Positions 9,010-63,264 of a DNA stretch of 64,000 bases are shown piece after piece. The DNA is from a virus (Duplodnaviria > Heunggongvirae > Uroviricota > Caudoviricetes). Location: positions 1-64,000 of IMG/VR virus record IMGVR_UViG_3300035497_000275. One strand, written 5' to 3'. Positions within the stretch are counted from its first letter, which is position 1. Every line of letters starts with the position of its first letter. The notes under the pieces were generated by a model. That model did no database searches, had not been told where the DNA came from, and saw only the letters and a list, made by a program, of their open reading frames with translations. The position numbers and the translations under genes were made by a program.

Positions 9010-9881
9010 TTATAAGCCTTTAAAAATATGCTTAATAACATCCTTTGTCCAACCGTTTCCACATAAGGATCGGCGTACATTATCACTGTATCCTTCGGTA
9101 TATCCATCTGGTAAAGTTTGCAACCGTTCATATTCTACGGGAGATAATTTCCGAATCCGTTCATTATCCCAAACTTTCTTTTCCTGATACCCTCCATTGA
9201 CACAAGTAAGAGTTGCACATTTGAATTTTGGATTATATACACGCTTTAATAAATCATGCGTATTGATTTGCAAAGTCGCAATGACCTTTTTATCGTCACC
9301 ATGAAAAATAAACGGTTTATCATAGTAATCTTTTTCTGGTACAGACTCTACCATGATATCTTGTAAAACTGTGTTATTCTTTTCTGGCAAGGGAGCAATT
9401 GGAATGTTCGTCCAATATAGTCTTTCACGATCCTGTGCTGAAAAGAGGTTGCTATTTATGTGATAACAACTTGCCCCCCCAGATTTGCGGTAATGGTATC
9501 TATATCGGCTTTATACTTTGGAACAACATTCTCCAACATGAAATAACGTGGATGAATTTCTTTAACTGCTCTCGCATATTCAAAGAAAATACCAGATTTA
9601 CCATTTAGGCCAGAACAGATCGAATCATTTTCTTGTCGTACTACGGAAAGGCTCTGGCAGCACGTTCCCGCAATCACCAAATCAAATCCATTGAACTGAG
9701 AAAAATCCGCTCCAATTACATTCCCATGATGATGAATGAATGGAAAATGTCGTGAACTGATTTCAATGGCTGGTTGGAAAATCTCGAATGTATGATATTC
9801 GTCCACTGTAATTCCTAATTCCTGCAAGGCAATCAAGCCTGTTTCAATACCGCCACAAATCGACAATACTTTTAATCCCAT
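9010..9881 (-). pseudogene. DNA (cytosine-5)-methyltransferase interrupted by a -1 frameshift in a G7 homopolymer (ORFs 9456..9881 and 9010..9390)
   Basis: The N-part has motifs I (LSICGGIETG), IV (GTCCQSLS) and VI (ENV). It stops after ..ANLGGQVVIT at the coding-strand G7 run (plus C7 at 9474..9480). With G8 the frame reads LGGASCYHINSNLFSAQDRERLYW (motif VIII QxRxR) and continues in frame into the 9010..9390 ORF (RKLSPVEYERLQTLPDGYT, RRSLCGNGWT are motifs IX/X). Confidence 0.7.
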
Positions 9882-9893
9882 GTTTTACTCTTT

Positions 9894-10319
9894 TCAAAAT
9901 AAAGGAGAATTAACGAGCGCATAAACACGGTTATCTCCATCAAAGATAATTTCTTTGATACAGTTTTTGGATTTAATATGATAACACTTGTTACCATCCA
10001 ACTGGTACACTGTCATGCCTGTATTCAACGCATACATCAATTCATCAAAAACACCACGACCAATCATCCCGGAAACCGTAGAAAACACAAGTGTATCACA
10101 TTCAGCAAGTGTATCAATAGCTGCTGTCATGATTTCTGACTCAGCGCAATCCTGCGGAAGAACTTCACTCGGATTTACAATTTCAATTGAACTATCCGGG
10201 AAAGCATCATAGATAACGTTCTTCTCATAAGCCTCCATCTTTGTGTCATACTTCCATGTGTGATGTGCGTAATAAATTTTCACTTGTATACCTCCTATTA
10301 AGTTATCAAATAAGACCAA
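9894..10319 (-). CDS. hypothetical protein; possible nucleoside 2-deoxyribosyltransferase-like fold
   Basis: 141 aa. KIYYAHH near the N-terminus and GVFDELMYALNTGMTVY weakly resemble the NDT/Rcl fold motif FE.GYA.A.GKPV. Tentative. Confidence 0.3.
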   Translation of the reverse strand: MVLFDNLIGGIQVKIYYAHHTWKYDTKMEAYEKNVIYDAFPDSSIEIVNPSEVLPQDCAESEIMTAAIDTLAECDTLVFSTVSGMIGRGVFDELMYALNTGMTVYQLDGNKCYHIKSKNCIKEIIFDGDNRVYALVNSPLF

Positions 10320-10741
10320 CGATTTTTCATTTCTTCTGGTGAAACATAATAATCACGTTTTCTACTTCCAGTCCACGCAATTCCACCAGCTTCGCCATCA
10401 AATGTAAAATTACTTGCTTTTAATGAACTTCCATTTTCAGAAGCCAATGTATAAGTGATTACTCTTTGATACCCCATATCTTTAGCAATACCCAAACAGG
10501 CTCCATATAATTTAGAACAAGCATTTCTTGTTCCATCAACACAATTACGATAAATTTCTAATGTTAATCCATCATCTAAATATCTTGCCGTTGGTCTGCC
10601 GCATATTGCAACTCCACATAATCTGTCATCATCATAACAAGATATTGCAAACTTTCCTCCAACTGGCGGAATATTATGACGGTGATATTGTTTTACATAT
10701 TCTTTTGCTGGAGTAAGATGTATTGGTCTAATTTTTAACAT
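10298..10741 (-). CDS. hypothetical protein
   Basis: 147 aa ORF inside the methyltransferase island; no recognisable motif. Confidence 0.4.
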   Translation of the reverse strand: MLKIRPIHLTPAKEYVKQYHRHNIPPVGGKFAISCYDDDRLCGVAICGRPTARYLDDGLTLEIYRNCVDGTRNACSKLYGACLGIAKDMGYQRVITYTLASENGSSLKASNFTFDGEAGGIAWTGSRKRDYYVSPEEMKNRWSYLIT

Positions 10742-10764
10742 CTTTCAACACTCACTTATTCGCA

Positions 10765-11262
10765 TCACCTTTCTTGCACTCTAAAAATTACTGGAATCAT
10801 TACCGTAGTACGTTCCTGCATCCACGGTTTTGACGGTTCAGAAAATCTATTACTATGTTCATTGACTACGATAATATCTCCTATCGTATAGAAGAAATCG
10901 CAGTTTGATAAATCTTGCGGCAACTCAACTGATTTATCACAAGTTTCTAAATTAATGATTTTATTTAGACACTCTTGTACAGTTTCGAGTACAAATAACA
11001 GAGTTCCATCATGCCGTGATGTTTTTGTTGTAAAATATCTGAAATCAGCATTAGGATCATAGGTAATTGTTGAAGTCATTTCACTTGGTTTATCGCCAAC
11101 CGAATATGTACACTTGATTTGATTGTTCTTATCAAAAGTAATTAAACCAGTTGGAGATAAGACTGTTACATTTTCAAAAGATATATCAAAGCCATCTGCG
11201 CCAAATTCTTGAATTCTCTTTTTAATGAAATCCAAACTCTTATTCATACAATCACCTTTCAA
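10765..11262 (-). CDS. hypothetical protein
   Basis: 165 aa ORF; overlaps the upstream methyltransferase gene by 11 nt. Confidence 0.4.
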   Translation of the reverse strand: MKGDCMNKSLDFIKKRIQEFGADGFDISFENVTVLSPTGLITFDKNNQIKCTYSVGDKPSEMTSTITYDPNADFRYFTTKTSRHDGTLLFVLETVQECLNKIINLETCDKSVELPQDLSNCDFFYTIGDIIVVNEHSNRFSEPSKPWMQERTTVMIPVIFRVQER

Positions 11263-11881
11263 AATCGTCTATACGCTGACACGCTGTTTGATAATATTGA
11301 CCATCCAGTTCATATCCGATAAATCTTCGTCCTGTATGTAAAGCAGCCAATGCCGTTGAACCAGCACCGATAAAACCATCAAATACAATGTCATTTGGCC
11401 TACTGTTATTCCGAATAAACAGTTCGAGAAGTTCTGTCGGCTTTTCTGTTGGATGAACCAATTTCGCAGAAGATACCTTTGCACAGTCAATCACGTCTGC
11501 TATGCGCTTTTCTTGAAATAGTGAACGTCCTTTATGACCGAACAACACCATTTCATATTTTGGTGCATATGCACCTTTTAAGTCACCGCTGCCATGATTG
11601 TTCTTATTCCAAATCAGGATATTCTTCAGCGTAAAGTATTTCTCAAATTCCGTCTTGAAAAATTCAATATGATGCCAACTGCAAAACATATAAATTGCAG
11701 AATCGTTTTTCAAAATACGATGATATTGATATAACGACTTGGAAATTAACTGGTTTGCGTCTTTATCGTTTTGAATCCTATCAAACTTTTCTTTTACGAC
11801 ACGTCTATTACTTCTGTAATTAATCAAATAAGGAGGATCAGTTACAATCAAATCAACTGATTCATCAGGCATTTTCTCCAT
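11252..11881 (-). CDS. DNA methyltransferase, beta-class (N6-adenine or N4-cytosine; DPPY then FxGxG)
   Basis: 209 aa. DLIVTDPPY near the N-terminus, HPTEKP, C-terminal FDGFIGAGST (motif I). Confidence 0.8.
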   Translation of the reverse strand: MEKMPDESVDLIVTDPPYLINYRSNRRVVKEKFDRIQNDKDANQLISKSLYQYHRILKNDSAIYMFCSWHHIEFFKTEFEKYFTLKNILIWNKNNHGSGDLKGAYAPKYEMVLFGHKGRSLFQEKRIADVIDCAKVSSAKLVHPTEKPTELLELFIRNNSRPNDIVFDGFIGAGSTALAALHTGRRFIGYELDGQYYQTACQRIDDFER

Positions 11882-11994
11882 CCCACAAATGCAATCACTG
11901 TTGAAAATTACATTTGTTCGTAGTAAACTACTTTCAAGTGGTTCTCCTTGCCCCCCCCCAAGTTCTCGACTGCATCATGTTTCCCTCCATATTA

Positions 11995-12096
11995 TTACAC
12001 CGGGACTGGATAAGGAGAACAACATGAAAGCATAATTGACAACATCAACGCATATGTAATCAGAAAAATAATATGTTTTGATACTTTTACAGTCAT
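11995..12096 (-). CDS. putative 33-aa hydrophobic peptide (MTVKVSKHIIFLITYALMLSIMLSCCSPYPVPV)
   Basis: AAGGAGGT RBS 5 nt upstream of ATG at 12096. Below the ORF-track size cutoff. Confidence 0.25.
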   Translation of the reverse strand: MTVKVSKHIIFLITYALMLSIMLSCCSPYPVPV

Positions 12097-12118
12097 GATT
12101 ACCTCCTTGTTTTTGTGG

Positions 12119-12847
12119 TTATGTATCTAAAATATATAATTGCTCCGTGATATTTAACCGGGAAGCATTATCCAATGTTCTTTTGACTGGCTGTGACCAG
12201 ATCGACTTCCATTGTACTGGTGCGGCTTGTTCCGAAACCAAAACAATATTCTTAGCAGACATTTCTTCTGCCCAATTCCAGAATTGTTCATGGTCAAATT
12301 CTTGTTGATACCCTGTTGTATTCGCATATGGAATATCACAGTAAATTACACCATGTTCATACTTTGACTGATCAAGCTGCTGATAGTCAAACTCGGCAAA
12401 TTCTACTCCTTGTAATGATGGAATCTGATTTAACAAATTTCGCTTTGCTTCATCATAATAGTTCCGAATTGTGCCGATTTTTGTTTTGACTGTCCCGGCT
12501 CTTCCGCCAAAGAACTTCCCATTATACGATGCAAGAAATCCTACCGCACCGATATACCAATCTGGAAATTGATGATCACCAGTTTGGTAGGATTTTCTGA
12601 CTGCATCATACTCGTCTTTCGTAATTTCATCTGGCAAAGTAGTAATTAAATCCATATTCTTGAATAGTTCAATGAGATAATGGTTGATATCATATCCCAT
12701 TTTCCTATTGCAAGAAATCTTATCAATTACGTTTGCCCCCCCCACGAAAGGCTCAAGGTAAAAATCGGCATCAAAATCGCTGATATAAGTCTGTATAATT
12801 GGAACGATAAACTTAGCAATGCGGGATTTTGAGCCAACGTACTTCAT
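12119..12847 (-). CDS. DNA adenine methyltransferase, Dam (D12 class, alpha)
   Basis: 242 aa. KYVGSKSRIAKFIVPII...EPFVGGANV (motifs X/I) and later CDIPY (DPPY variant), the Dam order. Confidence 0.85.
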   Translation of the reverse strand: MKYVGSKSRIAKFIVPIIQTYISDFDADFYLEPFVGGANVIDKISCNRKMGYDINHYLIELFKNMDLITTLPDEITKDEYDAVRKSYQTGDHQFPDWYIGAVGFLASYNGKFFGGRAGTVKTKIGTIRNYYDEAKRNLLNQIPSLQGVEFAEFDYQQLDQSKYEHGVIYCDIPYANTTGYQQEFDHEQFWNWAEEMSAKNIVLVSEQAAPVQWKSIWSQPVKRTLDNASRLNITEQLYILDT

Positions 12848-13948: not shown

Positions 13949-14440
13949 TTATCTTAATTTGATCCAATATCCTATATCCGACATTTCTTTAACCGCAGCA
14001 TCATAGTCGTTGTCGGTAAATACGACTAATTCACTTGGGAAAGGCGCAGGATCGTCTTGGTCATTGAAACGCAATCGTCCTTTTACGAAACAAACGTATT
14101 TTGCATTTGGAAAAACATAATTGTGCTGTGCTTTTACATCTGTTCTTGCTGGAATCAACATCACAGAAGTAATGTGATTTAACTGGCTTTCAATACAACA
14201 CTTTTCAATCCAATCCTCTTGTCCCGGATGTGCCTTCGTCTTACGTTCATAAGGCGGATTACAAAAAACTGTTTGCCCCCCCCAAGTTTGTGCCAGTCCA
14301 TCTTGTTCGATGGTATAGTAGGCATCACACTTATGGTTCGTATCATCTGCACATGGATCAAGTGTGAAATGAAAGACAGAATTCAAGCGATCAAATAACC
14401 ATTGCGGCGTTCCCCAATTATTGTTTCCAGTGCTTAACAA
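13949..14440 (-). CDS. DNA N6-adenine methyltransferase, small phage Dam-like (NPPY) family
   Basis: 163 aa. WGTPQWLFD...TWGGQTVFCNPPY (motif IV NPPY). Confidence 0.7.
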   Translation of the reverse strand: MLSTGNNNWGTPQWLFDRLNSVFHFTLDPCADDTNHKCDAYYTIEQDGLAQTWGGQTVFCNPPYERKTKAHPGQEDWIEKCCIESQLNHITSVMLIPARTDVKAQHNYVFPNAKYVCFVKGRLRFNDQDDPAPFPSELVVFTDNDYDAAVKEMSDIGYWIKLR

Positions 14441-14470: not shown

Positions 14471-14487
14471 CTTGCATTTATGGTTAT
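14471..14487 (-). promoter_or_regulatory. conserved 17-bp motif ATAACCATAAATGCAAG (copy 1)
   Basis: Exact match to the motif also found at 27628, 45318, 50171 and 54263; about 30 nt upstream of the 14440 start. Confidence 0.4.
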
Positions 14488-16667
14488 GTAGTTAAAAAAG
14501 AATTATAGAACATATCCCGAAGCTGGATGATATGTGTTGGATGATCTTCTTGGGCGGAAAGATTCATCACGAATCCATAGAACTGATTTTCAAGAGGTGT
14601 CTGCAACGAACCCATATACTTGAAATGTCCTTGGCGGAAAATTGTATGAGCCATTGACCGCATCTTCTTCCAGAGTTTATAATAAGACAGTTTGAACTTC
14701 ACCATGAATCCAACGCTATCCTCTACCACAAAACCCTCAATCACATGACCATCATACAAATAATCGTCAGTCATGATCTCATCATACCAATTGTAGAAAT
14801 CATGCCAATTCTGAATCTGAATCGCTCGTTTCTTTACCTCGAAGCCAAAATCCTTTCCAAGTTGGACAAGCTGCGAATACGAATACTTTTCAAATTCGAT
14901 CTCATTTTTCACTACATCCAGCAGGAACAAATGTGACTTATCATATTTGATAATATGAGGATCATGCTCCATATCTACACATTCAAACACGAATGTCACA
15001 TTCTTCTGCTTCATGTACTCTTTCAGCACATCCGCATTTTTGACGTTGGCATAGAACATATCATGCAACCAGTCAGAAAATTCTCCAGTAGGATCGGACT
15101 TGCTCGTGATAAAGAAATCATCCAGTTCGGCATCATAAGATACCATTCCAAGAAATCCATTCTCTTTCACATAAGCCGTGACAGGGAACCTGAATTTATG
15201 CTGGAGCATATCAAATCTTGTTTCTGGACGCTCGTTGACATTAAAGAATTTCGGATAGGCTCTTGCAACAACATTGCCAGTTACCGTATTGATAAACAAT
15301 CCTCTGGCCTTTGTTGTCTGCTCATTCCATTTCTTATCATAGAAGGCATTGCGAGTGAAATTGAAAGACGAAATATTTCCGAACTTCTTTTCGTTAATGT
15401 ACTTATTGCGCCGCATCTGGTCAACCAAATCCATTACCGTGGATTCTTTTTCAGTATACTTTTCAGGAATTTCTTCGTCCTGCTGCCTGAATACCGTATT
15501 CCGAATACTGATCGGATGGAAACCATCTGCATCCAGCGTTACAACTCGCAAATCCTTTCCGAATTCCACGCTGCCTTCCAAATCAAAACAACGGTCTGAA
15601 ACTTGAATCGGCAAATCCTGTGTATTTCGATGACCAAACACCTGATATACATTCTCAGGCATCAGTGTATCAAAACAATGAACAACATCTACATACTCAC
15701 TATATTTACCGACACCACGAATCATCTGGTCTGACGCAACCATTGTCAGATTATCAGGAATCATGCTCAAACCAGCGTGTGTGACAAGAACTGTCTTACC
15801 TCCATATGTATAATAGGCGCATTGACTCAGTTTTCGATACAACATTCTGGCAATCTTTGTATCCAGTCCGCTCATTTCAAGCTGCCTTCTTGTTACACGC
15901 TCAAATTCCGGGGACTTCGACACACCACCATGCGCCCAATACCAAAGCCAGCGTTCATGATTTCCTTCCAGCAGGATCACATTCGGACGATCCATAATAC
16001 TGTACAGGAAATTGATGACTTCAACATTTTCAATTCCACGGTCAATATAATCGCCGCAGAAAATGTACAGTTCATCATCCTGAATCCCATCATTCAAATA
16101 CTCCTGAAGGACGGTATTACAACCGTGGATATCACCAATATGATGGATTTTCTTAAAGTTGGAGAAATCCATTGGACGATACCAAATCTTGTCCAACTCG
16201 TCAGGCTGAATCACCGTCACACCCGCTGGAATCTTCTGCATAGCAAACCGGGAATACATATTATCAATGACTTCCTCTGGAACTTGCTTGTAGTATGGTC
16301 TGTTTTTATTTCTCCGTTTACATTCCTCAATAGGAACTGTGGTGAAATCAACGCAGTACATTCGATATCGGTAAGTTTTTGCCATATCCTTATAACGGTT
16401 GATCTCTGCCGTTTTAGAATTTGTAGCATCCACCACCACGAATTCTCCACGCTGCATTCTGGCTTCGAGCATCTGGAACAGTAATTGCCAAACTGTTTTA
16501 TCGTTACCCTGACTGATCCCCATTGAGCCATCCACTTGCATCACCGGGGACTGACACATCAGACGAATATTATCAGCGGAAAGCGTAAACTGTTCCAAAC
16601 CATGCTCTTTGATGTAGGTGGACTTTCCTACGCCAGCCGCACCACGCATCAATAACAATACTCGCAT
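14484..16667 (-). CDS. Pnkp-like RNA repair enzyme: polynucleotide kinase + calcineurin-type phosphatase + ligase-like adenylyltransferase
   Basis: 727 aa. N-terminal P-loop LLLMRGAAGVGKSTY. Central metallophosphatase motifs IGDIHGC, GDYIDRG, GNHE. C-terminal YVKENGFLG resembles nucleotidyltransferase motif I (KxDG/KEDGSL of RNA ligases). Same domain order as bacterial Pnkp. Confidence 0.75.
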   Translation of the reverse strand: MRVLLLMRGAAGVGKSTYIKEHGLEQFTLSADNIRLMCQSPVMQVDGSMGISQGNDKTVWQLLFQMLEARMQRGEFVVVDATNSKTAEINRYKDMAKTYRYRMYCVDFTTVPIEECKRRNKNRPYYKQVPEEVIDNMYSRFAMQKIPAGVTVIQPDELDKIWYRPMDFSNFKKIHHIGDIHGCNTVLQEYLNDGIQDDELYIFCGDYIDRGIENVEVINFLYSIMDRPNVILLEGNHERWLWYWAHGGVSKSPEFERVTRRQLEMSGLDTKIARMLYRKLSQCAYYTYGGKTVLVTHAGLSMIPDNLTMVASDQMIRGVGKYSEYVDVVHCFDTLMPENVYQVFGHRNTQDLPIQVSDRCFDLEGSVEFGKDLRVVTLDADGFHPISIRNTVFRQQDEEIPEKYTEKESTVMDLVDQMRRNKYINEKKFGNISSFNFTRNAFYDKKWNEQTTKARGLFINTVTGNVVARAYPKFFNVNERPETRFDMLQHKFRFPVTAYVKENGFLGMVSYDAELDDFFITSKSDPTGEFSDWLHDMFYANVKNADVLKEYMKQKNVTFVFECVDMEHDPHIIKYDKSHLFLLDVVKNEIEFEKYSYSQLVQLGKDFGFEVKKRAIQIQNWHDFYNWYDEIMTDDYLYDGHVIEGFVVEDSVGFMVKFKLSYYKLWKKMRSMAHTIFRQGHFKYMGSLQTPLENQFYGFVMNLSAQEDHPTHIIQLRDMFYNSFLTT

Positions 16668-16789
16668 TGAATCTTCCTTTCTTATTTATTTTTGTTATCA
16701 GTTGCTTTGGGTACAACGCCACATTTGCGTTCCAAACTTGCGTTTTGAACGCCTGTGGCGTTTAGATTGGAATAGATAACAGGATTAAC

Positions 16790-18696: not shown

Positions 18697-18765
18697 ACAC
18701 AAGATACGGAATCGAACCGCAATCTCCGTGTTCATCACGGTATTCTTCCATTGAACTATCTCGTG
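18697..18765 (-). ncRNA. tRNA-like element or degenerate tRNA (5-nt anticodon loop)
   Basis: Acceptor stem CACGAGA/TCTTGTG, D-arm GTTC-AATGGAA-GAAT with G18G19, T-arm TGCGG-TTCGATT-CCGTA. The anticodon arm is CCGTG-ATGAA-CACGG, so the loop is only 5 nt, or 7 nt without U33. 69 nt. Confidence 0.4.
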
Positions 18766-19848: not shown

Positions 19849-20211
19849 TTATGCTGAAGTCCCAAGGCCAAGGCTAACCAGCATGGCGTAATTGATTTCC
19901 TGCATCTTTTCTTCCGTCACGCTGCCGACATAGTTCTCCAGTCTACTCTTGTCGATTGTCCTGACCTGTTCCAGCAGCACCGTTGAATCCATTGATAAAT
20001 TACTTTCGTTGCATGGAATTTCGATGTGCGTGGGCAGATTCTTCTTTTGCTTAGAAGTCAGAACCGCAACAATGATCGTAGGACTGTAATGATTCCCGAC
20101 ATTATTCTGAATTACGACCACGGGACGAGTGCCGCCCTGTTCAGACCCGATAGCGGGACTGAGATCGGCATAGTAGATTTCGCCTCTCATGATATTCTTC
20201 ATAACGAACAC
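19849..20211 (-). CDS. MazF/PemK-family endoribonuclease toxin (EndoA-like)
   Basis: RGEIYYADLSPAIGSEQGGTRPVVVIQNNVGNHYSPTIIVAVLTS..LPTHIEI..LLEQVRTIDKSRL is near-collinear with Bacillus EndoA/MazF. The likely true start is ATG at 20202 (MKNIMRGE), with a GGAAGGTG RBS. Confidence 0.8.
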   Translation of the reverse strand: MFVMKNIMRGEIYYADLSPAIGSEQGGTRPVVVIQNNVGNHYSPTIIVAVLTSKQKKNLPTHIEIPCNESNLSMDSTVLLEQVRTIDKSRLENYVGSVTEEKMQEINYAMLVSLGLGTSA

Positions 20212-22501: not shown

Positions 22502-22589
22502 TGGCGACAGCGGAGGGATTTGAACCCCCGGACGATTTCTCGCCTACGGTTTTCAAGACCGTTACCTTCAACCACTCGGTCACGCTGCC
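22502..22589 (-). tRNA. tRNA-Ser (anticodon UGA), CCA encoded
   Basis: Acceptor GGCAGCG/CGCTGTC, 3-bp D-stem, anticodon arm ACGGT-CTTGAAA-ACCGT, long variable arm, T-arm GGGGG-TTCAAAT-CCCTC, CCA. 88 nt. Confidence 0.85.
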
Positions 22590-22621: not shown

Positions 22622-23350
22622 TTAAGCAACAGTTTCGTTATCCTCTGCGTTATCGTTCTGCTGCTTATTCTTGAATCTCAGGTTATTAGGCCAAATTGTA
22701 ACGGGAATTTTCTCTACCCCGAACATCTTATAGACCAGATAGGAAGTGTACCCATCAAACAGCACCATGTTCTCGTCCACCAGAATCGGTGTTTCACAAG
22801 CACCATGACTGCGGTACTCATCCAGACGCTTGTTCAACTTCTCGTTACGAGGCTGCGTCTTAGCGAAACTACTGGTGATCTTCACATCCGTCAGCAGAAC
22901 ATTCCTGCGCTCCAGATTGAAATATTCACAATCCTTCTGTGCGTCCTCCAGCGAAAAGTAAATGTTATCCTCCATCAGCTTCAGGACGTTGTTGGTTTCA
23001 CTACGAACATAATAGATCGTGGCAACTCGTCCATCAGGAAGAACATTCGCCTCCATCATTTCAATTACGGCTTGCTCAATCTGATACTTGATCTGACCGC
23101 TGGCCTTGATCGTCTTTTTACCACGGCACTCCGGGCAGACATAGGTTTTCACCGCATCAGGATTCATCAGAACATTCAAGAAGGAATCCGTCATCTTATC
23201 AACCGCTTCCGCCAGCGAATGGCAATCCTTTGTCACAGAATGACCAAGCCGAATCGTTCCATTGCCGCCGCACACTGGACACTCAATCCGCTTAATGGTT
23301 TTCAGATGGTAAATGGTATCACCGATGTTTCCGTTAATCTTCAGTTCCAT
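22622..23350 (-). CDS. hypothetical protein with CxxCxGxG zinc finger and possible ParB/Srx-like C-terminal region
   Basis: 242 aa. CPVCGGNGT and CPECRGKKT repeats. ETPILVDENMVLFDGYTSYLVYKMFGVEKIPVTIW resembles the ParB N-terminal motif but lacks GxxR. Confidence 0.4.
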   Translation of the reverse strand: MELKINGNIGDTIYHLKTIKRIECPVCGGNGTIRLGHSVTKDCHSLAEAVDKMTDSFLNVLMNPDAVKTYVCPECRGKKTIKASGQIKYQIEQAVIEMMEANVLPDGRVATIYYVRSETNNVLKLMEDNIYFSLEDAQKDCEYFNLERRNVLLTDVKITSSFAKTQPRNEKLNKRLDEYRSHGACETPILVDENMVLFDGYTSYLVYKMFGVEKIPVTIWPNNLRFKNKQQNDNAEDNETVA

Positions 23351-26373: not shown

Positions 26374-27213
26374 TTAATTATAGGACGCAACAAAAACAAA
26401 CTGGTTGATGTAGTCCGGCTGCTGTGTGAAGATAGGAATTTCCATATCAAAGCACCACTTATTTCGCACGATCTCACCAATCTTCACAGGCTTCTTTACA
26501 CAACAAGTACCACGCTTACAAGGTGTAGAGAAATCATTCCAGTTGATCCCCTTTTCTGTGAAAAGCATATCCTGAATCTTATCGCAGGATTGGTTCATCA
26601 ACTGCTTGTGGGAGAAATTAGCCTGACCGACAGATTGAATACTGTTCCGTGTGCAATCTACCTGTCTCCACACGAAGTAATTGGCAACATCATCCTTCGG
26701 CACATTGAATACACGGGCATCAAACAATGCCTTATCAAACCGGGATGTGTAAATCTGCGCCAGCTTCAAGGCATCCCGATCCACATTCGGATCATTTGTT
26801 CCGCCTTCATACCAGTCTGGCAAAGTCTCATTGCCCCATTCATCCACGTTCTTACGCCATGCGGCATTGAAGGCCATTGTTGCCATAGACGCTGAGACAC
26901 TACACATCTTCTGAAGCGTATTATCAAACCAAGAATCGCTTGCAATCGTCTGATAATCGACCAGCAACAGAGAAATTTCATCCGACTGTGTATAACCAAG
27001 CACACAGCCCTGAATATTTTCGCAGAGATACTTCATCGTATCCTGCATCGTTTTCATCAAAATCTGATCAAAAGGTTTCTTAAATCCTCTTGTAAATGTG
27101 TGAAAGGCTTTCCCATCAATCCGAATGATAACAGGCATACGCCGCACCAAATGCGCCCTTGTGACATTCTCGTAGGTTTTCATACGGTTGCCAAGATTAT
27201 CACGCTTATCCAT
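26374..27213 (-). CDS. Thg1-like protein (tRNA-His guanylyltransferase / 3'-5' nucleotidyltransferase family)
   Basis: 279 aa. KTYENVTRAHLVRRMPVIIRIDGKAFHTFTRGFKKPFD and YTQSDEISLLLVD match the Thg1 catalytic RIDG..FH.F and SDE blocks. Confidence 0.8.
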   Translation of the reverse strand: MDKRDNLGNRMKTYENVTRAHLVRRMPVIIRIDGKAFHTFTRGFKKPFDQILMKTMQDTMKYLCENIQGCVLGYTQSDEISLLLVDYQTIASDSWFDNTLQKMCSVSASMATMAFNAAWRKNVDEWGNETLPDWYEGGTNDPNVDRDALKLAQIYTSRFDKALFDARVFNVPKDDVANYFVWRQVDCTRNSIQSVGQANFSHKQLMNQSCDKIQDMLFTEKGINWNDFSTPCKRGTCCVKKPVKIGEIVRNKWCFDMEIPIFTQQPDYINQFVFVASYN

Positions 27214-28041: not shown

Positions 28042-28230
28042 TCACTCCTGTCTATTTCTAATCTGCTGCTTTGCAATTTCTACACGGGACAAACCGCAGA
28101 TCGGGCAATAGAGAAACTGTTTTTCTAAAGGAAACCGATAGCTGCCACCAGCCATAATCACACGAGAACCATATTTGTCTGTCTCATAAGAAGCAGTACC
28201 AAAATCAAAGCGACTGCAAAAATCACACAT
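28042..28230 (-). CDS. small zinc-ribbon protein
   Basis: 62 aa. CDFC...CPICG. Confidence 0.3.
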   Translation of the reverse strand: MCDFCSRFDFGTASYETDKYGSRVIMAGGSYRFPLEKQFLYCPICGLSRVEIAKQQIRNRQE

Positions 28231-30039: not shown

Positions 30040-31377
30040 TTACACCTCCAGATATGTTTTTGCCTGTTCCATCAAAACAGACCTTTTATTTTCCAATGTG
30101 CCTTCCACCACGGCATCCAGCAACTTTTTCAAAACTGCTCCAAGCTGGATACCTTGACGGAAACCAAGTTCCATCAGGTCTTTTCCGCTGACCGCCAAAT
30201 CCTTTAAGGTATAGCAGTCCTGCTCGGCCTGAATCTCCGCATAGATTTCCCAAATCTTTGAAAGGTTCGCTCGATCATCCGCAATGGGAGTCTGCGCCGC
30301 TTTATCTGCTGCCTTGACGTGCAACAGGCGTTCAAACTGTTCCGCTCCATAACGGTTCAAACAACGGCGCACAGAGGCTTTTGTGGGCGCAATCTCATGG
30401 TCATGAAATTCCACAAGCTGCGTAACAGTTTCCACCGTTTTATTATCAAAACGAAGATTCTTCAAGGAATTTTCCGCTATTCCAGCACTGATCACAGAAT
30501 GGTGATAGAAATGTCCATTCCCCTGTTCATCCAGCGTCATGCAATGGGGTTTTCCAAGGTCATGATAAAGTAGCGCAAGGCGGACATACAAATCCTTCGG
30601 CGCATAGGAAACTGCCGTGACAGTATGATTCCACACGTCCATATAATGATGAGGATTATGCTGCAAAAATCCAACGGCTGGCGTGATTTCCGGGATGATG
30701 ACGGCGAAAATCTCCTGATAACAGCGAAGCATGGTATAGCAAGCGTCACTCAGCAGGATTTCAGACAGTTCTCCAATCATCCGCTCTGGCGCAATTTGCT
30801 TCAGCAAATCCTTATGACGGAACATGGCTTCCTCTGTCCGCTTTTCCACAAAGAATCCAAACCGGGACGCAAAGCGAATGGCACGGAGAATCCGCAAAGC
30901 ATCCTCCTGAAACCGCTTATCTGGATTTCCAACACAGCAGATTTGTCCAAGTTTCAAATCAAAACGGCTTTTGGAATAGTCGATCACTCTGCCGCTGCTG
31001 TCTGCCGCCATTGCGTTGATCCGAAAATCACGGCGGGACAAATCTTCCTTTAGGTCACTGACGAATTCCACAGAATCAGGATGACGATGATCCGAATACA
31101 CACCATCTTTACGAAACGTGGTGATTTCATAACCTACACCATCCAGCAGGACAGTCAATGTTCCATGCTTCAATCCCGTTTCAATAACACGGAAATTACG
31201 GAAAATAGATTTCATCTGTCCCGGCAACGCACTGGTGCAAATGTCCCAATCATGCGGCGTTCTTCCAAGCAGACTATCCCGGACACATCCGCCCACCACA
31301 TAGGCGGAACATCCCGCATCCGTCAAAATATTCATCAACTGACGGGGAGCATCAGGAATTTCAATATAGGTGTCCAT
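30040..31377 (-). CDS. CCA-adding tRNA nucleotidyltransferase with C-terminal HD domain
   Basis: 445 aa. Pol-beta head motif AYVVGGCVRDSLLGRTPHDWDICT. C-terminal HD signature LLYHDLGKPH. Confidence 0.85.
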   Translation of the reverse strand: MDTYIEIPDAPRQLMNILTDAGCSAYVVGGCVRDSLLGRTPHDWDICTSALPGQMKSIFRNFRVIETGLKHGTLTVLLDGVGYEITTFRKDGVYSDHRHPDSVEFVSDLKEDLSRRDFRINAMAADSSGRVIDYSKSRFDLKLGQICCVGNPDKRFQEDALRILRAIRFASRFGFFVEKRTEEAMFRHKDLLKQIAPERMIGELSEILLSDACYTMLRCYQEIFAVIIPEITPAVGFLQHNPHHYMDVWNHTVTAVSYAPKDLYVRLALLYHDLGKPHCMTLDEQGNGHFYHHSVISAGIAENSLKNLRFDNKTVETVTQLVEFHDHEIAPTKASVRRCLNRYGAEQFERLLHVKAADKAAQTPIADDRANLSKIWEIYAEIQAEQDCYTLKDLAVSGKDLMELGFRQGIQLGAVLKKLLDAVVEGTLENKRSVLMEQAKTYLEV

Positions 31378-31628: not shown

Positions 31629-32705
31629 TTAATCCAACCCAATGAATTTACCTAAATACTGCCTTTCAAAGCACAAGTCCGGCATACCATCCTGCATGAT
31701 GGAATAGCGGTTGACATACATGGTAAATTCCTCGATCTCCTTGCTGTTTGGCTTTTCCGGGAGGGAGGAATTTTCCTTTGCGTAGTTCATCCGCTTTTCG
31801 TACTCATTGACCATATCGTAAAATTCCTGTCGAAACGTTCCATCTTCGTTCTGGAATTCTCCGTTGCGAATGGACATTAACAACGGCAAATCATGCTCCC
31901 GGTAGGTAATGATCTCTTCCTTTTCCAGAATGTCAATGCACATCAGGTACAGACGGATCAAGTGCATAGCGTGTTTTGCCAAATAAGCATCGTCTTTCTT
32001 CTTGTTCCGCTGCGTGATTTTTCCGTAGTCCTTGATAATTTTGTTGAGGTCGCTCCAAATGTTCTTATAATCCCGCAACGGATAATGCTTTAAGGAAACG
32101 TCCGCAAAAATCTCCGTGTCCAAATCCTCCTGCTGCGACTGGTCAACATACAACTGGAATGTTCCGTTTTCAAAATCCTGATACCGCTCGTTGAAAGAAA
32201 ACATAGCGGATTTACAGGAGGACAAAATGTGCGCCTCTTTTTCTGACTGCCCATAATTGTTTCTCGCCAAGGCCGCTTGCAGACGGCGAAGCTGCTGTGT
32301 GGCATATCCGCCAAAAGCGTAAATGGCTTTCCGGGACAGGAACATCTTACGCTTTTCCACCAGCAGTTTTCCGATCTCATTATAGAAATGGTAACTGTCT
32401 GGTCTGCATCCAAGTAATTCGATTGTGTTAGGATTACAGTTTTCCAACAGGCCAACCAGTTTATTAAAACTATAAATCGTGGTGTCCGTCTGGTTATCCA
32501 CGACCTGTTCAAAGTTGGTTCTTCCAAGCAAATCCCGGCTTGAATTCAAAGCGCATCCACGCACGTCAATGTCGGAGTCCGGGACGTTTGTTCCATAGGC
32601 GTGACTGCCGCCAAAAGTGGCAAATATCATCCGCTGTCCAAGATGTTCATTGGTATTGATAAACTGATATTCAGGACGTGCAAGCACTTCAATAATGTCC
32701 ATCAT
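31629..32705 (-). CDS. Pol-beta superfamily nucleotidyltransferase (NTase head plus helical tail)
   Basis: 358 aa. FATFGGSHAYGTNVPDSDIDVRG gives the GS-x10-DxD NTase signature. Sits next to the CCA-adding enzyme. Its stop overlaps the start of 32702..33418. Confidence 0.6.
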   Translation of the reverse strand: MMDIIEVLARPEYQFINTNEHLGQRMIFATFGGSHAYGTNVPDSDIDVRGCALNSSRDLLGRTNFEQVVDNQTDTTIYSFNKLVGLLENCNPNTIELLGCRPDSYHFYNEIGKLLVEKRKMFLSRKAIYAFGGYATQQLRRLQAALARNNYGQSEKEAHILSSCKSAMFSFNERYQDFENGTFQLYVDQSQQEDLDTEIFADVSLKHYPLRDYKNIWSDLNKIIKDYGKITQRNKKKDDAYLAKHAMHLIRLYLMCIDILEKEEIITYREHDLPLLMSIRNGEFQNEDGTFRQEFYDMVNEYEKRMNYAKENSSLPEKPNSKEIEEFTMYVNRYSIMQDGMPDLCFERQYLGKFIGLD

Positions 32706-44990: not shown

Positions 44991-45185
44991 TTAGTTGTTA
45001 AAATTAAGAATACCAGTATTTAAAAACCGCTGAAAAGTATTGATACAATCATTAAAATAGAAATTTGTACTAATCATATAATAGTTCATGATTGCGTTTA
45101 TAATTCCTACGCAAGCCGGGAAATTATACTTGTTTTGTTTTTTGGCTTCGCTATACATTGCGTTTATTGTATCGTAGTAACCCAT
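44991..45185 (-). CDS. hypothetical protein (first gene of the leftward block)
   Basis: 64 aa. GGGAGG RBS preceded by a degenerate copy of the ATAACC motif. Confidence 0.3.
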   Translation of the reverse strand: MGYYDTINAMYSEAKKQNKYNFPACVGIINAIMNYYMISTNFYFNDCINTFQRFLNTGILNFNN

Positions 45186-45317
45186 TTTATAAACCTCCCA
45201 TTTATTGCATATACGGTTATTTAGTAACTATTTAACGGATCAGCGGGTTTTTGTTTGGCTTATTTGATCCCGCTGCTTTATTTCCCCTTCCTCTTTACAA
45301 GTATATGTTACCACATT

Positions 45318-45334
45318 ATAACCATAAATGCAAG
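45318..45334 (+). promoter_or_regulatory. conserved 17-bp motif ATAACCATAAATGCAAG (copy 3, rightward)
   Basis: Exact match, in the divergent control region. Confidence 0.4.
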
Positions 45335-53012: not shown

Positions 53013-53025
53013 GGAGGTCAAAAAA

Positions 53026-62095: not shown

Positions 62096-62177
62096 GGGAA
62101 GGTAGCTTATCATGGTAAAGCATTTGACGAGCCAAAGCTGGTCAAAACGGTAATAGGTTCAAGTCCTGTCCTTCCAC
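62096..62177 (+). ncRNA. tRNA-like element with extended hairpin in place of the anticodon arm
   Basis: Acceptor GGGAAGG/CCTTCCA (6/7 bp), D-arm GCTT-ATCATGGTA-AAGC, T-arm ATAGG-TTCAAGT-CCTGT. The anticodon position is TTTGAC-G-AGC-CAAA-GCT-G-GTCAAA: a 9-bp helix with a G-G mismatch and a 4-nt loop. No CCA. Confidence 0.4.
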
Positions 62178-62209
62178 TCAAAAATTTTTAAAAACTTTTC
62201 TGAAAACCC

Positions 62210-62238
62210 TTGACAATAACCATATATTCAAGTATAAT
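62210..62238 (+). promoter_or_regulatory. consensus sigma-A promoter TTGACA-17-TATAAT driving the tRNA array
   Basis: TTGACA 62210..62215, spacer ATAACCATATATTCAAG (a variant of the 17-bp motif), TATAAT 62233..62238. Confidence 0.65.
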
Positions 62239-62301
62239 AGTCAATGTCAGGAGGCAATGAAACCTGATAATTCAAACGGTAGATAACCACATATACAATA
62301 T

Positions 62302-62376
62302 GGCGTGTTAGTCAAGTGGTTAAGACACCGCCCTTTCACGGCGGTAACACGAGTTCGAGTCTCGTACACGTCACCA
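62302..62376 (+). tRNA. tRNA-Glu (UUC)
   Basis: Acceptor GGCGTGT/ACACGTC, anticodon arm CCGCC-CTTTCAC-GGCGG, T-arm ACGAG-TTCGAGT-CTCGT, CCA encoded. 75 nt. Confidence 0.85.
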
Positions 62377-62520
62377 ATAGGGAACGGTTAATTAGAATAT
62401 CATAAACTCTTTGTTAGACGAAAGGGTTCGCTGCTCATGAGGCGTGTCTATATGATATTGTAAGTAAGGATTAACCAAGTAATAAGAGTTATGGAGTGGT
62501 TTTCTTATTACAAAAGACAA

Positions 62521-62594
62521 TGCGGAATATTGTAATGGTAGCATATTAGCCTCATAAGCTGATGATTCTGGTTCAATTCCAGATTCCGCAACCA
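62521..62594 (+). tRNA. tRNA-Met/Ile2 type (CAU), D-arm atypical
   Basis: Acceptor TGCGGAA/TTCCGCA, anticodon arm TTAGC-CTCATAA-GCTGA, T-arm TCTGG-TTCAATT-CCAGA, CCA. No clean 4-bp D-stem found by eye. Confidence 0.6.
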
Positions 62595-62597
62595 AAT

Positions 62598-62686
62598 GGA
62601 GTGTTGCCAGAGTTGGTAATGGGTCGGATTGCTAATCCGCAGCCAACGGAAACGTTGCGAAGGTTCAAATCCTTCACACTCCGCCA
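62598..62686 (+). tRNA. tRNA-Ser (GCU)
   Basis: Acceptor GGAGTGT/ACACTCC, anticodon loop TTGCTAA, long variable arm, T-arm AAGG-TTCAAAT-CCTT, CCA. 89 nt. Confidence 0.75.
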
Positions 62687-62694
62687 AAATATAT

Positions 62695-62770
62695 GCTGCT
62701 GTGGCGCAATAGGTAGCGCAACTGATTTGTAATCAGTAGGTTGCAGGTTCGATTCCTGTCAGCAGCTCCA
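62695..62770 (+). tRNA. tRNA-Thr (UGU)
   Basis: Acceptor GCTGCTG/CAGCAGC, D-arm GCGC-AATAGGTA-GCGC, anticodon arm ACTGA-TTTGTAA-TCAGT, CCA. 76 nt. Confidence 0.85.
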
Positions 62771-62773
62771 TAT

Positions 62774-62849
62774 GGGGACGTGGCGCAATTGGGAGCGCAT
62801 CTGATTTGCATTCAGAGGGTTGTGGGTTCGAGTCCCATCGTTTCCACCA
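62774..62849 (+). tRNA. tRNA-Ala (UGC)
   Basis: Acceptor GGGGACG with G3-U70, anticodon arm TCTGA-TTTGCAT-TCAGA, T-arm GTGGG-TTCGAGT-CCCAT, CCA. 76 nt. Confidence 0.85.
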
Positions 62850-62852
62850 TAT

Positions 62853-62939
62853 GCGGATGTGATGGAATTGGTAGACGTGCTTGACTCAAAATCAAGTGGT
62901 AGTGATACCGTGTGGGTTCGAGTCCCACCATCCGTACCA
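62853..62939 (+). tRNA. tRNA-Leu (CAA)
   Basis: Acceptor GCGGATG/CATCCGT, anticodon arm CTTGA-CTCAAAA-TCAAG, long variable arm, CCA. 87 nt. Confidence 0.85.
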
Positions 62940-63013
62940 ATATTCCCGTATTACAATGGTCTATGTATCTTTCCTATTGGCGAGAGCGGCTTGCAACGCA
63001 GCGGGAATTATAT

Positions 63014-63088
63014 AGGAGTGTAGTGTAACGGTCAGCATATCGGACTTTGACTCCGCTGGTAAAGGTTCAAATCCTTTCACTCCTGCCA
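63014..63088 (+). tRNA. tRNA-Gln (UUG)
   Basis: Acceptor AGGAGTG/CACTCCT, anticodon loop CTTTGAC, T-arm AAAGG-TTCAAAT-CCTTT, CCA. 75 nt. Confidence 0.75.
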
Positions 63089-63099
63089 TAATTAAATAT

Positions 63100-63187
63100 G
63101 GGGGTATAGCCGAACTGGTATAGGCAACAGACTTAAAATCTGTCGGTAGTGATACCATTGTGGATTCGAGTTCCACTACCCCTACCA
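63100..63187 (+). tRNA. tRNA-Leu (UAA)
   Basis: Acceptor GGGGGTA/TACCCCT, anticodon arm ACAGA-CTTAAAA-TCTGT, long variable arm, T-arm GTGGA-TTCGAGT-TCCAC, CCA. 88 nt. Confidence 0.85.
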
Positions 63188-63190
63188 TAT

Positions 63191-63264
63191 TGAGGGTATG
63201 GTGTAATGGTAACACGCTTGCCTTGGGAGCAAGAGTAGCAGTTCAAGTCTGATACCTTCAGCCA
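63191..63264 (+). tRNA. tRNA-Pro (UGG)
   Basis: Anticodon arm CTTGC-CTTGGGA-GCAAG perfect, D-stem GTGT/ACAC, T-loop TTCAAGT, ends ..ACCTTCAGCCA. Short variable arm; exact ends uncertain. Confidence 0.7.

What the first reader, a model, noticed from the sequence alone, without database searches (positions are those of the whole stretch)
14484..16667. Single polypeptide combining P-loop kinase, binuclear metallophosphatase and KxNG ligase-like domain
The domain order is P-loop kinase (GAAGVGKST), then calcineurin-type phosphatase (GDIHG / GDYIDRG / GNHE), then a C-terminal adenylyltransferase motif I variant (YVKENGFLG). This mirrors bacterial Pnkp, which works with Hen1. No Hen1-like methyltransferase is visible in the window. 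Either a partner lies outside the window, or this enzyme seals on its own. The motif uses Asn instead of Asp (KENG vs KxDG), which deserves attention.
Basis: partly seen in the sequence, partly recalled or inferred. Interest (0 to 1): 0.65.

Follow-up and report, generated by a model that had tools for sequence, protein, structure and literature searches.

The report
Phage one-protein RNA repair enzyme
This phage gene encodes a single protein that should both clean up and rejoin cut RNA (most likely tRNAs cut by bacterial defences); it belongs to a large, already catalogued but untested phage family, and its joining module is unexpectedly of the yeast tRNA-ligase type rather than the bacterial Pnkp or phage T4 type.

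Summary
ORF 14484-16667 (minus strand, 727 aa) has a P-loop polynucleotide kinase, a binuclear metallophosphatase and an ATP-dependent RNA ligase, each with a complete active site.

The healing half resembles bacterial Pnkp, but the ligase does not. It is a Pfam RNA_lig_T4_1 domain whose closest relatives by sequence and by fold are fungal Trl1 ligase domains. It carries its own Trl1-like C-terminal domain, so no Hen1 is expected, and none is present.

KxNG is the normal Trl1 motif I. It comes with the His/Arg/Arg pocket that makes fungal ligase depend on a 2'-phosphate end (here H571/K667/R670). That pocket is nearly invariant in 150 diverse family members and absent from T4 Rnl1.

The family is large, with about 112 full-length copies in cultured phages, and is already labelled "RNA ligase". 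No biochemical study turned up in the searchable literature.

The real partners in the window are an RlaP nucleotidyltransferase, a CCA-adding enzyme, a Thg1-like polymerase and about 11 tRNA genes.

Verdict: an ordinary heal-and-seal tRNA repair enzyme in a new module combination. The open question is whether it seals 2'-OH or 2'-phosphate ends. Interest is moderate.

The parts
14484..16667 (-). Whole ORF, 727 aa: kinase-phosphatase-ligase RNA repair protein (stop codon at 14484-14486)
   Evidence: ORF list. PHROG 8238 matches full length at E 6e-224. Three Pfam domains. AF2 model mean pLDDT 87.8.
16673..16680 (-). Shine-Dalgarno-like AAAGGAAG, ending 5 nt before the ATG
   Evidence: Read directly from the sequence. 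No sigma-70 promoter or terminator enrichment nearby, so the gene probably sits inside a long minus-strand transcription unit (inference).
16173..16667 (-). 5'-OH polynucleotide kinase domain (aa 1-165). P-loop G9-T17 at 16617-16643; D32/R35 at 16563-16574.
15468..16172 (-). Binuclear metallophosphoesterase domain (aa 166-400): GDIHG 16122-16136, GDYIDRG 16035-16055, GNHE 15954-15965, H297 15777-15779, H346 15630-15632
14688..15467 (-). ATP-dependent RNA ligase adenylyltransferase domain (aa 401-660): motif I K501-E-N-G at 15156-15167, motif III E562, H571 at 14955-14957, motif IV EGFV at 14727-14738, motif V K657-F-K659 at 14691-14699
   Evidence: Pfam RNA_lig_T4_1 at 8.9e-43 over the full model. 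Profile to PDB: Trl1-LIG at E 4e-24 to 3e-19, with T4 Rnl1 absent at E<=0.01. BLASTP 1e-17 to Trl1 against 0.021 to T4 Rnl1. Residue map.
14487..14687 (-). Short three-helix C-terminal domain (aa 661-727), homologous to the Trl1-LIG C-domain. Basic pair K667/R670 at 14658-14669; R717 at 14517-14519.
31629..32705 (-). Context, probable co-worker: RlaP (RNA-ligase-associated Pol-beta nucleotidyltransferase)
   Evidence: Pfam PF10127 at 2e-19. The family adds 1-2 nucleotides to RNA 3' ends in vitro (PMC12776372). The functional link to the ligase is inferred; it lies 15 kb away on the same strand.
30040..31377 (-). Context: CCA-adding enzyme / tRNA nucleotidyltransferase with HD domain
   Evidence: Pfam PolyA_pol at 4.4e-34, tRNA_NucTran2_2 at 8.9e-14, HD at 7.3e-8.
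26374..27213 (-). Context: Thg1-like 3'-5' nucleotidyltransferase (tRNA 5'-end repair type)
   Evidence: Pfam Thg1 at 4.5e-32 and Thg1C at 1.1e-6.
62096..63264 (+). Context: array of 9-10 tRNA genes (Glu, Met, Ser, Thr, Ala, Leu, Gln, Leu, Pro, plus one found by Rfam only). Another tRNA-Ser(UGA) lies at 22502-22589 on the minus strand.
   Evidence: ARAGORN; Rfam RF00005 at gathering threshold.

Best explanation
The gene encodes a self-contained heal-and-seal RNA repair enzyme of a large temperate phage of gut Clostridia. Its likely job is to rejoin tRNAs, host or phage-encoded, that have been cut by metal-independent ribonucleases such as anticodon nucleases or toxin RNases. [quoted passage not shown]

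The proposed steps are as follows. (1) The N-terminal P-loop kinase, of CthPnk type with Asp32 as general base, phosphorylates the 5'-OH. [quoted passage not shown] (3) The C-terminal ligase is adenylylated on Lys501, transfers AMP to the 5'-phosphate and joins it to the 3'-OH.

The ligase is of the fungal Trl1 type. Its own short C-terminal domain supplies the end-binding residues in cis, so it does not need a Hen1-like activator. It probably works with the phage's RlaP, CCA-adding and Thg1-like nucleotidyltransferases, which restore lost nucleotides, and with the phage tRNA set.

What is shown: the domain identities, the intact catalytic residues, the Trl1-like fold and pocket, and the absence of Hen1, RtcB and Tpt1 from the window. 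What is inferred: the substrates, the order of steps, cooperation with the other genes, and whether the sealed end carries a 2'-OH or a 2'-phosphate.
Against: I found no biochemical data for any member of this family. The RNA target is not identified, and no anticodon nuclease is known for the host. There is no conserved gene neighbourhood linking the gene to RlaP, CCA or Thg1 in other phages. The ligase carries the pocket that in fungi enforces 2'-phosphate ends, and that fits poorly with a fused phosphatase expected to produce 2'-OH ends.
Confidence: 0.8

Rival explanations
1. Yeast-type chemistry. The phosphatase acts mainly as a cyclic phosphodiesterase that leaves a 3'-OH,2'-phosphate end. 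The Trl1-like ligase needs, or strongly prefers, that 2'-phosphate, which it binds with N503/H571/K667/R670. The junction 2'-phosphate is then removed by a host Tpt1/KptA or by the enzyme's own phosphatase.
For: The fungal 2'-phosphate pocket is present and nearly invariant: N503 149/150, H571 149/150, K667 144 K + 6 R, R670 148/150. It is also found in six divergent cultured-phage homologs, while T4 Rnl1 has D/I/H/K at these positions. The His lies exactly nine residues after the motif III Glu, as in Trl1 (PMC11404444). In CthPnkp a single H189D change gives a 2'-phosphate product that yeast ligase seals and T4 Rnl1 does not (PMC1920235). 29 of 107 family representatives have Gln at that His, and His-to-Gln does not support monoesterase activity in CthPnkp (PMC3675462). 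Lambda phosphatase yields a mixture of 2'- and 3'-NMP (PMC2190708).
Against: The window protein keeps His181 and Arg210, both needed for the CthPnkp monoesterase, so 2'-OH ends are the default prediction. There is no Tpt1/KptA or 2H enzyme in the window, or in the 10 kb beyond one end. Phage-encoded KptA does not co-occur with the family: 95 Staphylococcus phage records carry the ligase and at most one has KptA. No family member has a fused 2H or Tpt1 domain. Plant Trl1 needs a 2'-phosphate yet lacks the two arginines, so the pocket and the specificity are not strictly coupled (PMC12440814).
Confidence: 0.25
2. One reading: a bacterial Pnkp-type enzyme whose ligase is inert until activated by a Hen1 methyltransferase encoded outside the window, which would also 2'-O-methylate the repair junction.
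For: The domain order is the same as in Pnkp, and the kinase and phosphatase are the best structural matches to CthPnkp modules. NCBIfam bacter_Pnkp is the top NCBIfam hit.
Against: That hit scores 73.6 bits against a cut-off of 750 and covers only model positions 10-324 of 851, so none of the ligase part. The ligase matches Trl1 and then T4 Rnl1, and no Pnkp ligase appears in the top 50-60 fold matches. The protein has its own C-domain. The only methyltransferases in the window are DNA methyltransferases: N6_N4, D12, phage Dam, C5 and Mom-like. The weak Methyltransf_23 protein in related contigs has an NPPF amino-methyltransferase motif and is absent from the window. No Hen1 lies next to the homologs in six other phage genomes.
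Confidence: 0.03
3. The protein is not an RNA repair enzyme. It could be a protein Ser/Thr phosphatase plus kinase used for host takeover, or a tail-fibre attachment factor like T4 gp63 (Rnl1), with the ligase fold kept for a non-catalytic role.
For: Several database annotations call homologs 'serine/threonine protein phosphatase'. The phosphatase's best sequence matches include lambda phosphatase and PP1/PP2A. T4 Rnl1 has a second role in tail-fibre attachment (record annotation).
Against: All three active sites are intact and under strong conservation across 150 diverse representatives, including the ligase nucleophile and its metal and ATP ligands. The kinase has the polynucleotide-kinase Asp/Arg acceptor site. 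The fusion of exactly these three activities is what RNA end healing and sealing requires. The gene lies among early, replication and modification genes, not among tail genes.
Confidence: 0.03

Closest known systems
Fungal tRNA ligase Trl1, ligase domain ('Rnl6' clade; Chaetomium thermophilum and Candida glabrata structures 6n0t, 6n0v, 6n67, 8rbj, 9qw7)
   Different: The domain order is reversed: the ligase is C-terminal here and N-terminal in Trl1. The healing modules differ: a metallophosphatase here against a 2H cyclic phosphodiesterase in Trl1. The kinase is closest to CthPnk rather than to the GTP-specific Trl1 kinase. The C-domain is shorter (about 67 aa against 81). The first Arg of the triad is Lys. 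Trl1 His241 and Arg305 correspond to Leu and Glu. The source is a phage, not a eukaryote. A 2'-phosphate requirement is untested.
Bacterial Pnkp of the Pnkp-Hen1 RNA repair system (Clostridium thermocellum Pnkp; TIGR04075)
   Same: Same order of kinase, binuclear metallophosphatase and ligase. The kinase and phosphatase are the closest solved structures, and all their essential residues are kept.
   Different: The ligase domain belongs to a different clade: it is not Rnl4 and is not covered by the Pnkp model. It has a C-domain in cis in place of the Hen1 N-terminal domain acting in trans. There is no hen1 gene. The context is a phage rather than a bacterial operon.
Bacteriophage T4 Pnkp plus Rnl1 tRNA repair pathway
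   Same: A phage-encoded countermeasure built from a 5' kinase, a 3' phosphatase and an ATP-dependent ligase of the same Pfam family (PF09511). The expected biological role is the same: reversing tRNA cleavage.
   Different: T4 uses two proteins and this phage uses one. The T4 phosphatase is a DxDxT/HAD enzyme, not a metallophosphatase. T4 Rnl1 has KEDG, lacks the His/Lys/Arg pocket (it has I167/H250/K253) and has an unrelated 120-aa tRNA-binding C-domain. Similarity to the window ligase is weak (BLASTP E 0.021).
PHROG 8238 / NCBI 'RNA ligase' proteins of Twort-like, Sep1-like, SPbeta-like, Brochothrix A9, Lactobacillus Lb338-1 and Fusobacterium FNU phages (for example Twort ORF008)
   Same: True family members with the same three-domain architecture, 33-46% identical. 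The family has been known as sequences since 2005.
   Different: The window protein comes from an uncultured gut phage. Its nearest database relative is 76% identical, and there is no nucleotide match to any deposited phage. I found no biochemical study of any of these proteins.

Membership tests
Bacterial Pnkp (Pnkp-Hen1 system, NCBIfam TIGR04075) | Whole-protein score at or above the curated cut-off (750 bits) | tested here: not met
   73.6 bits. The match covers model positions 10-324 of 851 only.
Bacterial Pnkp (Pnkp-Hen1 system, NCBIfam TIGR04075) | N-terminal P-loop 5'-OH polynucleotide kinase with Lys21/Ser22/Asp38/Arg41 | tested here: met
Bacterial Pnkp (Pnkp-Hen1 system, NCBIfam TIGR04075) | Central binuclear metallophosphoesterase with Asp187/His189/Asp233/Arg237/Asn263/His264/His323/His376 | tested here: met
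Bacterial Pnkp (Pnkp-Hen1 system, NCBIfam TIGR04075) | C-terminal Rnl4-type ligase domain that needs the Hen1 N-domain to seal | tested here: not met
   The ligase part of the model is not matched. The top fold hits are Trl1-LIG and then T4 Rnl1, with no Pnkp ligase in the top 50-60.
Bacterial Pnkp (Pnkp-Hen1 system, NCBIfam TIGR04075) | Adjacent hen1 (RNA 2'-O-methyltransferase) gene | tested here: not met
   Only DNA methyltransferases are in the window. None is next to the homologs in other phages. The other ~60 kb of the phage genome could not be read.
Pfam PF09511 RNA_lig_T4_1 (Rnl1-like ATP-dependent RNA ligases) | Score above the gathering threshold over the whole model | tested here: met
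   147.2 bits against 28.3; model positions 1-227 of 227.
Pfam PF09511 RNA_lig_T4_1 (Rnl1-like ATP-dependent RNA ligases) | Covalent nucleotidyltransferase motifs: Lys nucleophile (I), Ia, Glu (III), EG (IV), KxK (V) | tested here: met
   K501, K523, E562, E644/G645 and K657/K659 are each present in 149-150 of 150 representatives.
T4 Rnl1 clade (sensu Shuman) | Rnl1-specific C-terminal tRNA-binding domain (T4 aa 255-374) | tested here: not met
Trl1-type ligase ('Rnl6' clade) | Trl1-type helical C-domain appended to the adenylyltransferase domain | tested here: met
Trl1-type ligase ('Rnl6' clade) | His-Arg-Arg triad (Cth His227/Arg334/Arg337) plus the motif I Asn150 that bind the 2'-phosphate mimic | tested here: met
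   H571, K667 (Lys in place of Arg334), R670 and N503. T4 Rnl1 has I, H, K and D at these positions.
Trl1-type ligase ('Rnl6' clade) | Requirement or strong preference for a 3'-OH,2'-phosphate end | not testable with these tools
   This needs ligation assays with 2'-phosphate and 2'-OH substrates.
Eukaryal trifunctional tRNA ligase Trl1 (whole protein) | LIG-KIN-CPD order with a 2H cyclic phosphodiesterase | tested here: not met
   The order here is KIN-phosphatase-LIG, with a metallophosphoesterase. No 2H domain is seen in this protein or in ten atypical family members.
T4 Pnkp | DxDxT (HAD) 3'-phosphatase domain fused to the kinase | tested here: not met
   The phosphatase is a calcineurin-type binuclear metalloenzyme.

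The most novel reading that the evidence does not exclude
This phage family is a prokaryotic-virus branch of the Trl1-type tRNA ligases, previously described as confined to fungi and kinetoplastids. It keeps a working 2'-phosphate pocket. If so, it seals 3'-OH,2'-phosphate ends made by its own metallophosphodiesterase and leaves a 2'-phosphate junction, giving bacteria and phages a natural source of 2'-phosphate RNA. That would supply the missing substrate for the widespread but unexplained bacterial Tpt1/KptA enzymes. Alternatively, the enzyme's own phosphatase might remove the junction phosphate. Either way it would point to a phage link in the origin of the eukaryotic tRNA splicing ligase.
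Probability: 0.25. Interest if true: 0.8.

Novelty: new variant of a known kind. Interest (0 to 1): 0.48.

Why it matters
Heal-and-seal RNA repair is a known phage counter-defence, so the basic function is not new. This case adds three things.

1. It corrects an easy mis-assignment. Kinase-phosphatase-ligase order does not make a protein a Pnkp/Hen1 system.

2. It shows that a very large phage family joins a bacterial-Pnkp-type healing half to a yeast-Trl1-type sealing half. The family has about 2,700 clusters at 50% identity and about 112 full-length copies in cultured Staphylococcus, Bacillus, Brochothrix, Lactobacillus and Fusobacterium phages. The Trl1-type half includes the pocket that published work (PMC6379707, PMC11404444) describes as unique to, and diagnostic of, 2'-phosphate-dependent fungal ligases.

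3. It makes one question directly testable with a single recombinant protein: do phages use the "yeast" chemistry, and is that where substrates for bacterial Tpt1 come from?

It also matters for current efforts to use the His-Arg-Arg pocket as an antifungal target, because gut and skin phages carry the same pocket.

Tried and rejected
- **Pnkp/Hen1 membership:** rejected on the NCBIfam score and coverage and on fold matches.
- **Hen1, RtcB, Tpt1/KptA and 2H partners:** searched for among about 55 window ORFs with Pfam and PHROGs and with tblastn of a KptA sequence. None was found.
- **A weak Methyltransf_23 protein in related contigs:** this turned out to be an NPPF DNA amino-methyltransferase and is absent from the window. 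The window ORF at the corresponding place (22622-23350) is a zinc-ribbon protein.
- **Conserved gene neighbourhoods in six other phages:** no conserved partner.
- **Beyond the window:** only 10 kb at one end could be read, and it holds replication genes. At the other end the available contigs stop at the tRNA array.
- **The orphan ORF 32702-33418, which overlaps the RlaP start:** only two homologs, so no structure prediction was attempted.
- **Remus_168 ('2',3'-cyclic nucleotide 3'-phosphodiesterase'):** its N-terminal 198 aa has no Pfam hit, so the annotation could not be confirmed.
- **Burroughs & Aravind 2016 (PMC5062991):** this is the paper most likely to have catalogued the fusion, and it is not held. 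Prior description there cannot be excluded.
- **Promoter and terminator scan:** nothing above chance.
- **Megablast of 16 kb of the window against deposited phages:** no match.
Full report
**1. The observation**

ORF 14484-16667 on the minus strand is a real, uninterrupted 727-codon reading frame with an ATG start. A Shine-Dalgarno-like AAAGGAAG ends 5 nt upstream of the ATG.

Pfam finds three domains:
- AAA_33 (P-loop kinase), aa 4-141, E 1.2e-22.
- Metallophos, aa 173-299, E 7.9e-13.
- RNA_lig_T4_1, aa 453-663, covering the entire model, E 8.9e-43 (147 bits against a cut-off of 28.3).

An AlphaFold2 model built on 32 homologs is confident (mean pLDDT 87.8, pTM 0.70).

**2. What each module is**

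*Ligase.* Motifs I (K501-E-N-G), Ia (K523), III (E562), IV (E644-G-F-V) and V (K657-x-K659) are all present, as are the N-subdomain ATP contacts R455, K473 and F474.

**3. The ligase is Trl1-like, not Pnkp-like or T4-like**

*Not Pnkp-like.* NCBIfam's bacterial Pnkp model scores 73.6 bits against a cut-off of 750. It aligns only to model positions 10-324 of 851, which is the kinase and phosphatase part.

*Sequence evidence.* Against all PDB sequences, the best hits for the protein, and more strongly for a family profile, are fungal Trl1 ligase domains (E 4e-24 to 3e-19). The alignment runs to the last residues of the protein. T4 Rnl1 is not found at E<=0.01. Direct BLASTP of the ligase region gives E 1e-17 to Chaetomium and Candida glabrata Trl1-LIG and 0.021 to authentic T4 Rnl1.

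**4. The KxNG motif and the 2'-phosphate pocket**

In Chaetomium Trl1-LIG, motif I is TLKENG. Asn150 contacts both the catalytic metal's waters and a sulfate taken to mimic the RNA 2'-phosphate. The other sulfate ligands are His227, Arg334 and Arg337, described as unique to the Trl1 clade (PMC6379707). They were later shown kinetically to enforce the 2'-phosphate preference (PMC11404444, PMC12440814).

The HMM alignment and a MAFFT alignment with T4 Rnl1 and five divergent cultured-phage homologs give the following map:

| Window protein | Chaetomium Trl1-LIG |
|---|---|
| N503 | Asn150 |
| H571 (nine residues after E562, as in Trl1) | His227 |
| K667 | Arg334 |
| R670 | Arg337 |
| R717 | Arg389 (C-domain) |

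All six phage proteins have N/H/K/R at the four pocket positions, while T4 Rnl1 has D101/I167/H250/K253.

Across the 150 best cluster representatives from a 1.8-billion-protein library, which are at most 50% identical to each other, the counts are N503 149, H571 149, K667 144 K + 6 R, R670 148 and R717 143.

So the Asn is the family norm and part of a conserved anion pocket. It is not a degenerate KxDG. Differences from Trl1 are a shorter C-domain, Lys for the first Arg, and Leu/Glu at the positions of Trl1 His241/Arg305.

**5. How common and how well known the family is**

- PHROG 8238 ('RNA ligase') matches end to end.
- tblastn finds the full-length protein in 112 deposited phage genomes, at 37-46% identity. 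These include SPbeta-like Bacillus phages, Twort-, Sep1- and related Staphylococcus phages, Brochothrix A9, and Alicyclobacillus, Lactobacillus and Fusobacterium phages.
- Annotations vary: 'RNA ligase', 'polynucleotide kinase', 'Ser/Thr phosphatase' or 'hypothetical'.
- The 5.8-billion-protein database returns 3,269 hits, the best at 76% identity, one of them named 'RNA ligase [Flintibacter muris]'.
- The ligase domain alone finds 2,678 cluster representatives, 642 of them at E<=1e-30. Of the best 150, 91 have the three-domain length.
- Atypical members are kinase+ligase, phosphatase+ligase, unknown N-terminal domain+ligase, or carry a homing-endonuclease insert. None has a 2H or Tpt1 domain.
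- Eight literature searches found no biochemical study of any member. Comparative papers mention calcineurin-like phosphatases in phage RNA repair only in passing (PMC7824862, PMC9503650).

**6. Context in the window**

The window is about half of a ~124 kb phage genome from a JGI metagenome. It is syntenic, at 64-78% nucleotide identity, with abundant 125-155 kb gut-metagenome contigs that share the order DUF6273, this gene, Dam, D12 MTase, N6_N4 MTase ... AAA_24, YorH, DnaB. It has no nucleotide match among deposited phages. An integrase at 46146-46898 suggests a temperate lifestyle.

The immediate neighbours are DNA methyltransferases, an SPFH protein and a DUF6273 protein. No Hen1, RtcB, Tpt1/KptA or 2H enzyme was found among about 55 ORFs scanned, by tblastn with KptA, or in the 10 kb beyond one end.

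The same strand does carry other RNA-end repair genes:
- a Thg1-like 3'-5' polymerase (26374-27213);
- a CCA-adding enzyme (30040-31377);
- an RlaP nucleotidyltransferase (31629-32705).

There are also 11 tRNA genes. RlaP enzymes add one or two nucleotides to RNA 3' ends and leave a 3'-OH suited to 5'-phosphate ligases (PMC12776372). These, rather than Hen1, are the plausible co-workers, but this is inferred. Other phages carrying the family show no conserved linkage.

**7. Mechanism**

The best-supported reading is a self-sufficient heal-and-seal enzyme. [quoted passage not shown] In Trl1 the C-domain is dispensable for adenylylation but essential for sealing (PMC11404444). In Pnkp that role is played in trans by Hen1 (established knowledge of the Pnkp-Hen1 system). 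Here the C-domain is fused, so autonomy is expected.

The unresolved point is the 2' end.

*For a T4-like 2'-OH route:*
- The window protein keeps His181 and Arg210, which CthPnkp needs for its monoesterase step (PMC3675462).
- No Tpt1 is present.
- Phage-encoded KptA does not co-occur with the family: 95 Staphylococcus phage records carry the ligase and at most one carries KptA.

*For a yeast-like 2'-phosphate route:*
- The pocket is almost invariant.
- CthPnkp H189D switches to a 2'-phosphate product that only yeast ligase seals (PMC1920235).
- 29 of 107 family representatives naturally have Gln at that His.

I put about 0.25 on a real 2'-phosphate preference.

**8. Verdict**

The specific analogy to Pnkp/Hen1 is not supported. 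The protein is a new member (at most 76% identity to anything known) of a large, catalogued but apparently uncharacterised phage family. That family is best described as a new variant of heal-and-seal RNA repair: Pnkp-type healing fused to Trl1-type sealing. Interest is moderate. It would rise sharply if the 2'-phosphate chemistry were confirmed.

Noticed in passing
window 19849-20211 (-): A phage-encoded MazF/PemK-like endoribonuclease toxin (PHROG 1936, E 3.9e-36) lies 3.2 kb upstream of the repair gene. The same ORF is present in the related contigs (PemK_toxin in L003-L006). MazF-type cuts leave exactly the ends that this repair enzyme would heal.
   Followed up: partly
window 53814-54266 (+): A Macro-domain protein (Pfam E 2.1e-9). 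Macro domains process ADP-ribose-1''-phosphate, a by-product of Tpt1/KptA action, but they also counter ADP-ribosylation defences. No KptA was found in the window.
   Followed up: partly
family representatives P0171, P0177, P0185 and others (29 of 107 with the domain aligned): In the phosphatase motif I (GDxHG), the metal-ligand His equivalent to CthPnkp His189 is naturally Gln (GDLQG) in about a quarter of family representatives. In CthPnkp this position decides whether the product end is 2'-OH or 2'-phosphate. The window protein and the cultured-phage homologs keep His.
   Followed up: partly
L007 4557-5999 (Staphylococcus phage Remus, Remus_168): A 480-aa protein joins the same Trl1-like ligase domain to a 198-aa N-terminal region with no Pfam hit. 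It is annotated '2',3'-cyclic nucleotide 3'-phosphodiesterase'. If that annotation is right, it would be a ligase plus CPD pairing reminiscent of Trl1.
   Followed up: partly
P0121 (1001 aa family member): A homolog has NUMOD1/NUMOD4/I-HmuI-like homing-endonuclease modules inserted between the kinase and the phosphatase motifs.
   Followed up: no
window 32702-33418 (-): A 238-aa orphan ORF whose end overlaps the RlaP start codon by 4 nt, which suggests translational coupling. It has only two homologs in 5.8 billion proteins and no Pfam or PHROG hit.
   Followed up: partly
window 18697-18765 (-) and 62096-62177 (+): ARAGORN calls a 69-nt 'tRNA-Ser(UGA)' at 18697-18765, which is too short for a class II tRNA and is not supported by Rfam. 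Rfam finds an extra weak tRNA (35.8 bits) at 62096-62177 that ARAGORN misses.
   Followed up: partly
window 9010-12847 and 13949-14440 (-), 54288-54929 (+): An unusually dense set of DNA-modification genes: N6_N4 MTase, D12 MTase, phage Dam, a C5-cytosine MTase apparently split into two ORFs (9456-9881 and 9010-9390; a single 290-aa gene in relative L004), a second C5 MTase fragment, and a weak Mom-like hit (10298-10741).
   Followed up: no
window 28230-28754 (-): A 174-aa protein matches only the N-terminal (DUF262) half of GmrSD-type restriction endonucleases. It sits between the Thg1-like and CCA-adding genes.
   Followed up: no
window 45000-46900: The coding strand and GC skew switch at about 45-46 kb, next to a tyrosine integrase (46146-46898). 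Beyond it lie auxiliary genes: a class-V aminotransferase (50434-51627), FolD (52990-53814), ClpP, PhoH, and a 1055-aa ORF with no Pfam hit (55308-58475).
   Followed up: no
phage collection: 54 Listeria phage records match the full-length protein but drop out when only the ligase domain is used as the query. Those phages appear to carry the kinase and/or phosphatase part without this ligase.
   Followed up: no
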